This document shows, in pieces, positions 13,963 to 20,713 of a DNA stretch of 36,032 nucleotides. Each line of letters opens with the position of its first letter. Within the stretch, counting starts at the first letter, position 1. Origin of the DNA: Octopus sinensis (lineage: Eukaryota); assembly GCF_006345805.1 (NCBI RefSeq), contig NW_021833488.1:1-36032 (forward strand), in the 5' to 3' direction. Under the pieces are notes generated by a model. The model saw nothing but the letters and a program-made list of their open reading frames with translations, was not told the DNA's origin and made no database searches. The position numbers and the translations under genes are program-made.

Positions 13963-14291
13963 GCGTGGCTGCGTGGTAAGAAGTTTGCTTCCCAACTACT
14001 CGATTCCGCGTTCAGTCCCATTGCGCGGCACCTTGGGCAGATGTCTTCTACTACAGCTTCCGGCAAACCATCGCCTTGCGAATGGGTTTGGTGGTCGGAA
14101 AGAAACCAGTCACGTGTGCCTGTGGTTTTGTGCTGTGTTCGTAACCCACAACCATTGTTGGTTGGTTTACGTACCAGTAACTGAGCACTTCGGCAAAAGA
14201 CGCCGAAAGAATAATTACTGGGGTCAATTCGTTCGACTAAAACCCTTCAAGGTGATGCTCCAGCATGGCCGCAATCGAACGCCTGATACAA
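13963..14291 (+). mobile_element. SINE family B, diverged
   Basis: gcgtggctgcgtggtaagaagtttgcttcccaac..ttcagtccca..ccttgggca..gctccagcatggccgca. Confidence 0.85.
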
Positions 14292-15002
14292 ATACATTAT
14301 ATGCTGCACCCCAAAGCTCTCTGCCAAGTAGTCACGGTGTGTCGAATTTAATACAAATGAATAGGCCCAGAAGGAAACGCATCGAAAGATGAAACCATCG
14401 CTCGAGACTATTCCACGCGAAGTCATGATTGGTCAGATTGTGTCGATCACGTGGGCAATATTCAAGCGAATCGCGATATTGGGCGAATCGATGTGACTGC
14501 TGAACGTTTCCACTACAAATTCATGTGGTCTATAGTAACATGGACATTCCCTTGGTGTTGCCAGAGAACAAATGTGTTGTCCACGTATCATTAGCAATCC
14601 GATGGTTTCCCTTTTAGGAGTTAGTCTTCCAAGTGCATCGCATAGATGCTAGTCGATAACCAATGATAATTGTGGACACATCAAAAACTCTTCAATATGT
14701 CGGCAAATTTCATTGGCCGTTCTTAGGTGCACTGCTGACGTCAGCATGATAATATTATTCATCATTTTAATTTATTCGTTTTGCAAACTAGAAAAGACCC
14801 AAAGTCATTTCGACATTTTGTAACAGCAAACTAACGAAGCCGAAAATAAACAGCCTAATGTCTCCAACAGTGCCTTTGTAGATATAATAGATATATATGC
14901 ATATTCATAAACCCAAAATAGAATATATGCATATGTATATGTGTATGCATGTAAGTATGTATATAATACATGTAAGTATATATATATATATATATAATGA
15001 CC

Positions 15003-15076
<74 letters not shown>

Positions 15077-15262
15077 GTAAAAATGGTAAGATAACAAAAG
15101 AAGAAAGAGACCTCAATATTATGTAAATAGAAGAAATTTATCTGTAAAATAATATGTGATAAATATTCGGTAGCCAAGATAAAACTCTGAGTTTCGGATG
15201 CCAAGGTGGAAATCCACAACACCATCTATTTGGTTATCTGGCCATCTCTATAGTTACTATAG

Positions 15263-15782
15263 ATGGCCGGATAACCGAAGAGATGGTGGTGTGGATTTCC
15301 ACATGGCCAGATAACCGAAGAGATGGTGGTGTGGATTTCCACATGGCCAGATAGCCGAAGAGATGGTGGTGTGGATTTCCACATGGCCAGATAACCGAAG
15401 AGATGGTGGTGTGGATTTCCACATGGCCAGATAACCGAAGAGATGGTGGTGTGGATTTCCACATGGCCAGATAACCGAAGAGATGGTGGTGTGGATTTCC
15501 ACATGGCCAGATAACCGAAGAGATGGTGGTGTGGATTTCCACATGGCCAGATAACCGAAGAGATGGTGGTGTGGATTTCCACATGGCCAGATAACCGAAG
15601 AGATGGTGGTGTGGATTTCCACATGGCAGATAACCGAAGAGATGGTGGTGTGGATTTCCACATGGCCAGATAACCGAAGAGATGGTGGTGTGGATTTCCA
15701 CATGGCCAGATAACCGAAGAGAGATGCTGGTGGGATTTCCACATGGCCAGATAACCGAAGAGATGGTGGTGTGGATTTCCAC
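15263..15782 (+). repeat. 13 copies of a 40-bp unit (atggccagataaccgaagagatggtggtgtggatttccac), equal to the 5' half of a hammerhead
   Basis: Units start at 15263, 15303 ... 15743; near-identical, no spacers. Confidence 0.95.
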
Positions 15783-15816
15783 CTCGGCATCCGAAACTCA
15801 GAGTTTTATCTTGGCT
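15745..15816 (+). ncRNA. Type I hammerhead ribozyme, U4C core variant
   Basis: GGCCAGATAA-CCGAAGA(15755-15761)-GATG..GTGGA tt TCCAC..CATC-C-GAA-ACTC a GAGT-T(15805)-TTATCT(t)GGCT: ~10-bp stem I, extended stem II, near-palindromic stem III. The left-arm copy (15172-15243, minus) has the broken core CCAAATA. Confidence 0.75.
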
Positions 15817-15889
15817 ACCGAATAATTGTCACATTTTATTTTACAGATATATATTATATATAATTATATATATAGATATATATATATAT

Positions 15890-15921
<32 letters not shown>

Positions 15922-15963
15922 ATATATAGCAGCATCAGCGCCAAACAGTAATGTAGAATAAAC

Positions 15964-16244: not shown

Positions 16245-16665
16245 AATACCTATTTCTTTACTACCCACAAGGGGCTAAACACAGAGAGGACAAACAAGGA
16301 CAGACAAACGGATTAAGTCGATTATATCGACCCCAGTGCGTAACTGGGACTTAATTTATCGACCCCGAAAGGATGAAAGGCAAAGTCGACCTCAGCGGAA
16401 TTTGAACTCAGAACGTAACGGCAGACGAAATACGTATTTCTTTACTACCCACAAGGGGCTAAACACAGAGAGGACAAACAAGGACAGACAAACGGATTAA
16501 GTCGATTATATCGACCCCAGTGCGTAACTGGTACTTAATTTATCGACCCTGAAAAGGTAAAAGGCAAAGTCGACCTCGGCGGAATTTGAACTCAGATCGT
16601 AACGGCAGATGAAATACCGCTAAGCATTTTGGCCGGCGCGCTAACGATTCTGCCAGCTCGTCGCC
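16245..16665 (-). mobile_element. SINE family A, head plus two tandem ~185-bp body units
   Basis: Head ggcgacgagctggcagaatcgttagcgcgccgg; B-box-like gagttcaaattcc; unit junction at ~16430-16440. Confidence 0.9.
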
Positions 16666-19419: not shown

Positions 19420-20713
19420 CGAGGGGCGTTCAATAAGTAATGCCCCTGACCCACTTCCCATAGCAGTAGAGCAACGAAACATGGCACAGTTATTAGTCCT
19501 TGTGTACATAGGAACCACCCTGAGTTACGCATTTCTCCCATCGTTTGATACAGCTCTGGAGACCGTTTTTGTAGAAGACCCCAGCTTGGTCCTCCAACCA
19601 CGACGTGACTTCAGAAATCAAGGCTGCATCATCTGGGAAACGCTTTCCTTTCAAAAACAACTTCATGGCTGGGAAGAGGTGAACATTAGACGGTGCAAGG
19701 TCAGGAGAGTAGGGGGGATGGGAGAGGAGTTCATAGCCGCACGCCTCTGCTTCTGATCTGGCGACATGCGAGTTGTGGACCGGAGCGTTGTCTTGCAGGA
19801 GGAGGATGCCTTTGCTGATCTTGCCCCGCCTCTTGATTTTGATAGCTTCTCTTAATTTACTCAAAAGTGAAGCATAATAGGCTCCTGTAATTGTGGTATC
19901 CTTTGCCAGGAAATCTGTCATCACTACTCCATCCTGGTCCCAGAAGACTGTGAGCATGACCTTGCCAGCGGAGGGCTGCACCCTCGCCTTCTTTGGAGGA
20001 GGTGAGTCACGGTGCTTTCACTACATTGACTGGGGTTTGGTCTCTGGATCATAGTGATGGACCCAGGTTTCATCCTGTGTATCAGTCTTTGAAAAAATTT
20101 TGACTCATCTTCTTGGGCACATCTCCAAATTCATCCTCGAGCACTCGACGCGTTTCTTTTGCCTTCGGAAAGGTATGACAACCTGGGAATCCATCTGGCA
20201 GACACCTTTTGCATATGCAAATGGTCATGAATGTAGTTTCCACAGACCCGGTACTAATCTTGACCTCATGGGCTATTTAGTGAATAGTTATGCATCGATC
20301 TTCCAAAATGGCAGCCCCAACTTGACGGACAGATGCCTCATCAATGGCAGAAGTAGCGATACCAGATCTGGGAGCTGTTTCCACAGAGTTCCGACCATGT
20401 TTGAATTCACGATGCCAGCGTTTTACAAGGTCATATGATGGGGAATCATCACCATAAGTTACTTTGATTTCATCCAAAGTCTCCCGTGGTGTGCGTCCTT
20501 TCAAATACAAAAACCGGATCACTGCTCGACACTCAACAGGCTCCATTTCACACTTGACTCAGTTCAAACACCTGTAAATCGGAAACCACAATTAGTTCAG
20601 AGCTGTAATTTGCCACTTATTCTAGAGAGATATAAATAATTGCACATGCAACATTTCAGCTAGATCAAACAACTGGAAGTGGGTCAGAGACATTACTTAT
20701 TGAACGCCCCTCG
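19420..20713 (-). mobile_element. Full-length mariner (DD34D, irritans/Hsmar2-like), 1294 bp
   Basis: 39-bp TIRs CGAGGGGCGTTCAATAAGTAATGYCYCTGACCCACTTCC (2 mismatches); TA duplication at 19418-19419 and 20714-20715. Confidence 0.97.
19493..20546 (-). pseudogene. Mariner transposase, disrupted
   Basis: HTH MEPVECRAVIRFL.., WIPR, QDETWVHHYDPE, QDNAPVH, PPYSPDLAPSNVHLF (third catalytic D changed to N); stop at 20277-20279 and frameshifts. Confidence 0.95.

What the first reader, a model, noticed from the sequence alone, without database searches (positions are those of the whole stretch)
15263..15816. 13-fold amplification of half a ribozyme inside a palindrome
The 40-bp unit is the 5' strand of stem I, the core strand CCGAAGA and most of stem II. 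Only the last unit is followed by the GAAA/stem III/cleavage-site half. A transcript would present 13 interchangeable 5' halves to one 3' half, which could give register-shifted folding or trans-acting pairing. The extra units could also absorb the antisense left arm and free the last unit to fold. The amplified arm retains the core, while the unamplified arm has lost it (CCAAATA). The array may instead be a neutral RT or replication slippage product at the GTGGAttTCCAC hairpin.
Basis: partly seen in the sequence, partly recalled or inferred. Interest (0 to 1): 0.8.

Follow-up and report, generated by a model that had tools for sequence, protein, structure and literature searches.

The report
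Penelope junction stutter turned minisatellite
The 13 half-ribozyme repeats are real and sit at the broken front end of a common jumping-gene copy; they likely began as a copying stutter when that copy was inserted and likely grew afterwards as an ordinary tandem repeat, and they are predicted not to help the ribozyme fold.

Summary
The array is real: 13 x 40 bp. Its junction is covered by contigs of 1 of 4 public runs; the unit number is not pinned. It is the 5' end of a short insertion of a Hydra-clade Penelope-like retrotransposon family (at least 2,481 exact core copies), in the usual layout: inverted arm, tail, (TA)n target. The motif is that clade's minimal hammerhead; U4C is the family's majority state. 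Duplications of the core recur: 18 other events, 17 at an insertion's 5' junction, each with its own breakpoints; a second one reached 21 x 59 bp. Folding does not support a device: the left arm holds the 3' half at 99.9% with 1 or 13 units, extra units do not raise the hammerhead fold, and the array adds no second stem III for a dimer. Best reading: integration-stage stutter, then neutral minisatellite growth. Open novel reading: telomerase-like reiterative copying by the Penelope RT. This scan noted a similar array in another genome (e1-8578567, unchecked).

The parts
14977..15073 (.). (TA)n target microsatellite, left side
   Evidence: TRF; (TA)n is the listed target of Hydra-clade elements
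15075..15247 (-). Inverted 5' arm: pLTR copy ending in the long 'tail' form (about 15075-15140 has no partner in the right arm)
   Evidence: same long end in many family copies
15227..15233 (-). Decayed core of the left arm (CCAAATA instead of CCGAAGA)
   Evidence: nearest other copies of this arm are 95-96% alike
15248..15262 (.). Palindrome tip: short non-element filler forming its own hairpin (6 bp, 3-nt loop); last two bases may be element-derived
   Evidence: not in the long family copies read
15263..15782 (+). 13 x 40-bp array: 5' strand of stem I, core CCGAAGA, 5' strand and tip of stem II
   Evidence: junction in contigs of run X1
15744..15817 (+). The one complete minimal type I hammerhead motif: stem I 15744-15754 with 15806-15817, core 15755-15761 (U4C), stem II closed by 15762-15765 with 15788-15791, one extra C at 15792, GAA 15793-15795, palindromic stem III 15796-15804, predicted cut after 15805
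   Evidence: layout compared with File S2 of PMC8557442
15818..15849 (+). Rest of the pLTR, ending at the short (tail-less) 3' end
15847..15928 (.). (TA)n target microsatellite, right side
   Evidence: TRF

Best explanation
The array is the front end of a short, 5'-truncated and inverted insertion of a Penelope-like retrotransposon, where a 40-base stretch was likely copied twice during integration and likely expanded later to 13 copies as a neutral minisatellite. Shown: family membership, sense strand, the inverted-arm/tail/(TA)n layout, clustering of 5' ends just upstream of the hammerhead core, and recurrence of core duplications at 5' junctions with locus-specific breakpoints. Inferred: reverse transcription ran from the short 3' end to the start of stem I, the polymerase (RT or a repair polymerase) stalled or ran off, re-engaged 40 bases back and recopied, and the junction was then closed on the inverted arm through a short hairpin filler. 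Inferred: the two-copy seed, hairpin-rich and inside a palindrome, grew by slippage or unequal exchange in DNA. Predicted: the RNA, if made at all, is a long hairpin that buries the cut site, so the array has no ribozyme role.
For: Family: 2,481 exact copies of the core 28-mer, 44 of the first 100 listed lie in inverted pairs within 3.5 kb. Parent ORF with RT and C-terminal GIY-YIG lies upstream on the same strand in long copies. 5' ends: 20 of 45 sampled copies end within 16 nt upstream of C3, 4 in the next 48 nt (p = 3e-9). Duplications: 18 other events (7, 4 events at 5 loci, 2 new, 1 new, 3, 1 seen); by my reading of the loci 17 of 18 sit at the 5' junction, 1 is internal, although 16 of 30 sampled copies run on more than 64 nt upstream (p = 2e-5). 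In L047 and L145 sequence of the duplication joint and of the inversion tip is shared, which points to one integration event. DNA-level turnover: the sister array of 21 x 59 bp has a two-base variant in 3 scattered units and another variant in 2. Window array: 3 substitutions in 520 bp against 6-7 between the arms (p = 0.02-0.009). Folding.
Against: No unit-to-unit shared variant exists in the window's own array, so DNA-level growth is shown only for the sister array. The array is not measurably younger than the right arm's 3' half alone (3/520 against 1/68, p = 0.39); the age argument rests on the left arm. There is no clear microhomology at the window's joint. The search patterns need an intact duplicated core word, so duplications elsewhere in the element were not counted, and all counts are lower bounds. 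Folding is an equilibrium model without tertiary contacts, protein or co-transcriptional kinetics; a related ribozyme needed the element's protein to cut (PMC11167929).
Confidence: 0.72

Rival explanations
1. All or most of the 13 units were laid down in one integration by the Penelope RT repeatedly copying the same short RNA stretch (reiterative template jumps, or rolling over a small RNA circle), in the manner of telomerase repeat addition.
For: 17 of 18 other duplications are anchored at the 5' end of an insertion; L035 has three copies with unequal joints; two events join within one base of the predicted cut site (L141, L142); PLE RTs are the sister group of telomerase RTs (PMC8557442 abstract); template jumping and snap-back are described for R2 (passages of PMC11371274 and PMC3774820).
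Against: 14 of 18 other events stop at two copies; shared scattered variants in the 21-unit array need DNA-level exchange after mutation; the window's units are more alike than the two arms; the 13 joints are all the same, whereas L035's repeated jumps are not.
Confidence: 0.14
2. The array is a selected RNA device: spare 5' halves soak up the antisense arm or offer shifted registers so that the ribozyme can cut or act in trans.
For: All 13 units keep CCGAAGA while the left arm does not; 13 units do capture the arm's last 40 nt, raising the modelled fold from about 1e-61 to 1e-34; a kinetic window during transcription was not modelled.
Against: The 3' half is 99.9% paired to the left arm either way; without the arm the total fold falls with unit number and the last unit is disfavoured (1e-7 or less); metazoan PLE hammerheads with short palindromic stem III act as dimers and cut poorly (PMC4209133), and the array supplies one stem III only; breakpoints are unique to this locus; the junction was covered in 1 of 4 runs laid; U4C lowers activity in vitro in a viroid ribozyme (passage of PMC3088659).
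Confidence: 0.04
3. The duplication is real but the number 13 is inflated or unstable in the assembly (long-read consensus errors in a palindrome).
For: The window is a whole unplaced 36-kb contig; indels in units 10 and 12 look like unpolished read errors; junction depth in X1 is only 3.3-3.6 times the tip depth.
Against: The junction is present in an assembly-independent set of short-read contigs at several times the depth of the unique tip; those depths are sums over overlapping contigs and only about 76% of X1 was read, so the ratio is no copy number; the right flank has no second near-identical copy among the 40 best candidates scored; a chromosome-scale contig holds a like array.
Confidence: 0.1

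Closest known systems
Hydra clade of Penelope-like elements, e.g. Hydra-1_Obim and Penelope-3_HM (Craig et al. 2021, PMC8557442; seen: passages, section 11, supplement part 2 and search hits)
   Same: RWK, DKT, CxCX5C linker, CxxC and CxH around the GIY-YIG domain in the parent ORF; (TA)n target; inverted 5'-truncated copy and tail; hammerhead at the 3' end with palindromic stem III. Penelope-3_HM has the same stem III and cut site; 19 of 26 listed Hydra rows have an extra C or T before GAA.
   Different: All 26 listed Hydra rows have CTGA cores; here CCGA dominates (2,481 against 340). The family's own motif words were not found in that supplement. No short arrays at the 5' junction in the passages I read.
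Minimal type I hammerheads in pLTRs of metazoan PLEs (Cervera and De la Pena 2014, PMC4209133; seen: parts 1-2 of 4)
   Same: Type I layout, long stem II, short palindromic stem III suited to dimers, many single or opposite-strand copies tied to truncated elements.
   Different: U4C core; the extra base lies 3' of stem II, not between positions 9 and 10.1; here half the motif is repeated, which cannot build a dimer.
Non-LTR retrozymes derived from PLE pLTRs (Li, Clavereau, Pollet 2026, bioRxiv 10.64898/2026.07.22.740005; seen: part 1 of 5 and passages)
   Same: Tandem repeat made from the hammerhead region of a pLTR.
   Different: Retrozymes need a complete hammerhead in each unit; the 40-bp unit has only half. 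The 59-bp and 111-bp arrays elsewhere in this genome come closer.
Tandem repeats derived from parts of retroposons (SINE-derived satellites, PMC10702118, abstract and outline only; PMC3389668, search listing only)
   Same: Independent births of tandem arrays from one portion of an abundant interspersed repeat.
   Different: Here the seed is tied to the 5' integration junction and to a ribozyme edge.
5' junction snap-back, template jumps and short tandem duplications of R2 retrotransposons (PMC11371274, PMC3774820; passages only)
   Same: Fold-back synthesis, non-templated filler and short direct duplications formed at the 5' joint.
   Different: R2 duplications mostly involve target rDNA and a fixed ribozyme cut; not reported there to grow into 13-21 copies in the passages read.

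Membership tests
Hydra-clade Penelope-like element | RT followed by C-terminal GIY-YIG endonuclease in one ORF upstream of the pLTR | tested here: met
   Parent copies L085/L086: RT motifs and GIY-YIG (Pfam PF01541 E = 0.011, below the curated cut-off). The window copy itself has no ORF and is 88% alike to the parent's end.
Hydra-clade Penelope-like element | RWK and DKT motifs | tested here: met
   MRWK read in L086 DNA; DKT in P0002
Hydra-clade Penelope-like element | CxCX5C linker; CxxC and CxH beside the conserved E and N | tested here: met
   All three read in P0001 against section 11 of PMC8557442
Hydra-clade Penelope-like element | Insertion in (TA)n; inverted 5' copy and tail; length under 3 kb | tested here: met
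   L086 arm about 2.7 kb from tail to 3' end
Hydra-clade Penelope-like element | Placement in the Hydra clade on an RT tree | not tested
   No tree built; assignment rests on motifs
Minimal type I hammerhead ribozyme | Core CUGANGA | tested here: not met
   CCGAAGA (U4C) in the window and in 2,481 copies; 340 copies of the same family have CTGAAGA, far more than the 89 mirror CpG changes
Minimal type I hammerhead ribozyme | GAAA, stems I and II, palindromic stem III, NUH cut site | tested here: met
   Last unit plus 3' half only; one extra base before GAA as in 19 of 26 Hydra rows; fold energy alone is not significant (z = -1.37)
Minimal type I hammerhead ribozyme | Match to an Rfam hammerhead model | tested here: not met
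   No hammerhead family among 15 hits at E up to 10; none among the 150 of 160 rows shown for the whole window
Minimal type I hammerhead ribozyme | Self-cleavage | not testable with these tools
   No RNA reads; needs a bench assay
Non-LTR retrozyme | At least two consecutive tandem units each with a complete hammerhead | tested here: not met
   Only the last of 13 units has the 3' half
Retroposon-derived minisatellite | Head-to-tail copies of a 10-100 bp part of an interspersed repeat | tested here: met
Retroposon-derived minisatellite | Length variation among alleles | tested here: inconclusive
   Junction covered in X1 only, X2-X4 zero; contigs cannot give unit numbers

The most novel reading that the evidence does not exclude
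The Penelope RT, sister of telomerase, adds repeats processively: on reaching the 5' edge of the hammerhead it re-engages the same RNA and lays down 13 (here) or 21 (C27) copies in one integration. The same reaction, when the jump lands past the cut site, makes arrays of whole minimal hammerheads (59 bp at C27, 111 bp at C15), which would be the birth step of retrozyme satellites caught in one genome.
Probability: 0.15. Interest if true: 0.72.

Novelty: new member of a known kind. Interest (0 to 1): 0.3.

Why it matters
As a single locus it is a neutral repeat. The family-wide pattern is the useful part: 5' ends pile up at the ribozyme's front edge, short duplications are seeded there again and again, and a few grow into arrays, some holding whole hammerheads. 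That gives a countable natural record of how Penelope elements close their 5' junction, which the papers read call unresolved, and a concrete route from pLTR to ribozyme-bearing satellites. It also shows a family that spread to thousands of copies with a U4C core, in line with the report that hammerhead cutting is not needed for insertion in vitro (PMC11167929). I found no description of 5'-junction arrays in PLEs in searches; the library lacks most subscription journals.

Tried and rejected
Rfam: only microRNA-type hairpin hits, no hammerhead. Haplotype duplicate of the locus in the assembly: none among the 40 best candidates for the right flank, best other hit 77% over most of the query. No RNA holder listed; no conclusion on expression. 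Single-copy depth for X1: nothing laid on 14290-14880, so the junction depth could not be turned into a unit number; lack of cover in X2-X4 is not proof of absence. Distant relatives in metagenome contigs: 144 stretches, none confirmed. Duplications of the 3' half alone, period 17-47: 0. Sequence look-up of earlier findings: none; eight notes on this genome concern other elements. Lunse et al. 2016 on dimeric PLE hammerheads is not held; seen only as cited in PMC6765202, so tested core variants there remain unknown to me. Covariation within the family was looked at and is too slight to test the fold; support comes from the published Hydra rows. Microhomology at the window's joint: a 6-base likeness to the upstream sequence of some copies would give a different joint letter, so rejected as proof. 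MITE or DNA-transposon origin rejected: arms are unequal, have tail and short ends, and lead to an RT ORF. Supplements of the bioRxiv preprint were not seen and may list short retrozyme units.

Full report
Observation. The window is a whole unplaced contig, G000:C9959, of a 2.72-Gb animal genome. Tandem Repeats Finder gives 13.0 copies of a 40-bp unit at 15263-15782. Nine units are identical; four differ by one to three changes, three of them indels of the kind long reads leave. The array lies inside a palindrome with arms 15127-15245 and 15743-15861, between two (TA)n tracts.

Is it in reads? Laying short-read contigs on 15083-15322, the bins past the first unit junction have summed depth 193.6 and 173.3 in run X1 and 0 in X2, X3 and X4; the unique tip has 53 in X1, 7 in X3, 0 in the others. 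So the junction exists outside the assembly and in several copies. X1 may be the source sample, depths are sums over overlapping contigs, and I got no single-copy depth, so 13 is not confirmed.

What the element is. The last unit plus its 3' flank has 1,022 first-look candidates; the 28-mer from core to stem II tip occurs exactly 2,481 times. Of the first 100 listed, 44 lie in inverted pairs within 3.5 kb. Copies end at one of two 3' points about 70 bases apart and run into (TA)n. [quoted passage not shown] It has RWK, DKT, CxCX5C, CxxC and CxH, the marks given for the Hydra clade in section 11 of PMC8557442. Inverted 5'-truncated copies and a tail at one end are described as typical of these elements (passages of PMC8557442 and PMC3846280), and the tail is explained by two RT start sites (PMC11167929, parts 1-2 of 4). 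The palindrome is therefore the ordinary form of this family. The window's subfamily is 88% alike to the coding one at its end; its longer copies that I read (L016, L018, L024) have non-coding upstream sequence, so it is probably non-autonomous.

Is the motif a hammerhead? Rfam has no hit. File S2 of PMC8557442 lists 26 Hydra rows with the same layout at the same place; 5 have stem III ACTC-N-GAGT, one with the identical loop and cut site, and 19 have an extra C or T before GAA (my counts). All 26 have CTGA. Here 2,481 copies have CCGA and 340 CTGA, against 89 with the mirror CpG change CCAA, so an older subfamily had the canonical core and U4C spread later; this is inference from counts and from the more diverged look of the CTGA copies. 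It is a hammerhead by descent; activity is untested. U4C lowers activity of a viroid ribozyme in vitro (passage of PMC3088659).

Where the array sits. In 45 copies sampled by pattern, 20 have their 5' end within 16 nt upstream of C3 and 4 in the next 48 nt. The window's unit starts inside this cluster. Pattern searches for a doubled core found 17 other events and one more was seen. Periods run from about 20 to 111 bp and no other has period 40. Reading them, 17 of 18 lie at the 5' junction and one (L032) is internal with a 4-base microhomology, although 16 of 30 sampled copies extend well upstream (p = 2e-5). Fourteen have two copies, L035 three, L156 3.4, and L140 20.9 copies of 59 bp; two loci are one event copied with its flanks. 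In L047 the inverted arm begins with the duplication joint and in L145 the joint holds an inverted piece of the tip, which ties the duplication to integration. No duplication of the 3' half alone was found: the 5' half is repeated because duplications start at the 5' end. Caveat: the patterns see only duplications with an intact core word.

How two became thirteen. The 21-unit array has a two-base variant in units 11, 14 and 20 and another variant in units 0 and 15, which needs exchange between units in DNA. The window's array has 3 substitutions in 520 bp, against 6-7 between its arms (p = 0.02 or 0.009), but is not distinguishable from the right arm's 3' half alone (p = 0.39). Later DNA-level growth is thus favoured, not proven; one-step reiteration by the RT stays open.

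Does it help the ribozyme? With the left arm, the 3' half is 99.9% paired to that arm in the 13-unit RNA and in two natural one-unit palindromes; the spare units match only the arm's last 40 nt. Without the arm, the natural array gives a joint stem I + II probability of 1e-7 against 0.009 for one unit, partly through the odd unit 12; with idealised identical units the full fold goes from 0.0042 (1 unit) to 0.00094 (13), carried by the first unit, while the last falls to 1e-7 or less because each joint lengthens the hairpin of the unit before it. Metazoan PLE hammerheads are reported to need two copies of the palindromic stem III and to cut poorly (PMC4209133; review passages); this array has one. 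These are equilibrium models; a kinetic or protein-assisted window is not excluded.

Verdict. A real minisatellite born at the 5' inversion junction of a Hydra-clade Penelope insertion; most likely neutral (0.72). It is not a retrozyme by the two-complete-units rule (preprint methods). The family-wide stutter and the whole-core arrays at C27 and C15 are the parts worth following. An unchecked note of this scan reports a like array in another genome; I did not test it and it does not enter the score.

Noticed in passing
L140:1620-2845 (G000:C27:2868119-2869344, minus strand): 20.9 x 59-bp array of the same family in which each unit has the whole core, stem II, GAAA, palindromic stem III and cut site; the joint is a short palindrome that can serve as stem I. 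A natural two-unit stretch gives the outer ribozyme of a dimer probability 0.01, three units 5e-7. Candidate minimal retrozyme-like array, with U4C core.
   Followed up: partly
L156:1421-1799 (G000:C15, near 40873000): 3.4 x 111-bp array of whole hammerheads with the canonical CTGAAGA core at a 5' inversion junction.
   Followed up: partly
L142, L122 and L141: Two-copy duplications whose joint lies at, or one base before, the predicted cut site; may record cleaved RNA ends used for template jumps.
   Followed up: no
family-wide, just upstream of window 15263: The 5' breakpoint cluster follows a pyrimidine run ending in AG in long copies, like a splice acceptor; in Drosophila Penelope an intron ends at helix I (PMC4209133). 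Not tested with RNA.
   Followed up: no
window 15763-15825: A 20-codon frame starts in stem II; 3 of 5 differences to the coding subfamily are synonymous by my reading. In other PLEs the ORF starts in the pLTR.
   Followed up: no
L024 (about 760-940 in sense orientation); window 849-1045, 2588-2719, 8236-8314: A second repeat family with a hammerhead-like motif bearing an A6U-type core in L024, nested in an internal (TA)n; pieces of it lie in the window.
   Followed up: partly
window 16245-16618 and 23094-23641: Tandem 184-bp copies (2.0 and 3.0) of an abundant SINE-like repeat.
   Followed up: no
window 19496-20017 (-) and 34016-34534 (-): Open frames that look like a mariner-type transposase piece and a LINE piece (labels recalled, not searched).
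   Followed up: no
window 29730-33566: 3.8-kb TA-rich tract with extreme C over G skew.
   Followed up: no
L002-L007: One palindromic insertion present six times with identical flanks, five on unplaced contigs: segmental duplication or redundant assembly.
   Followed up: no
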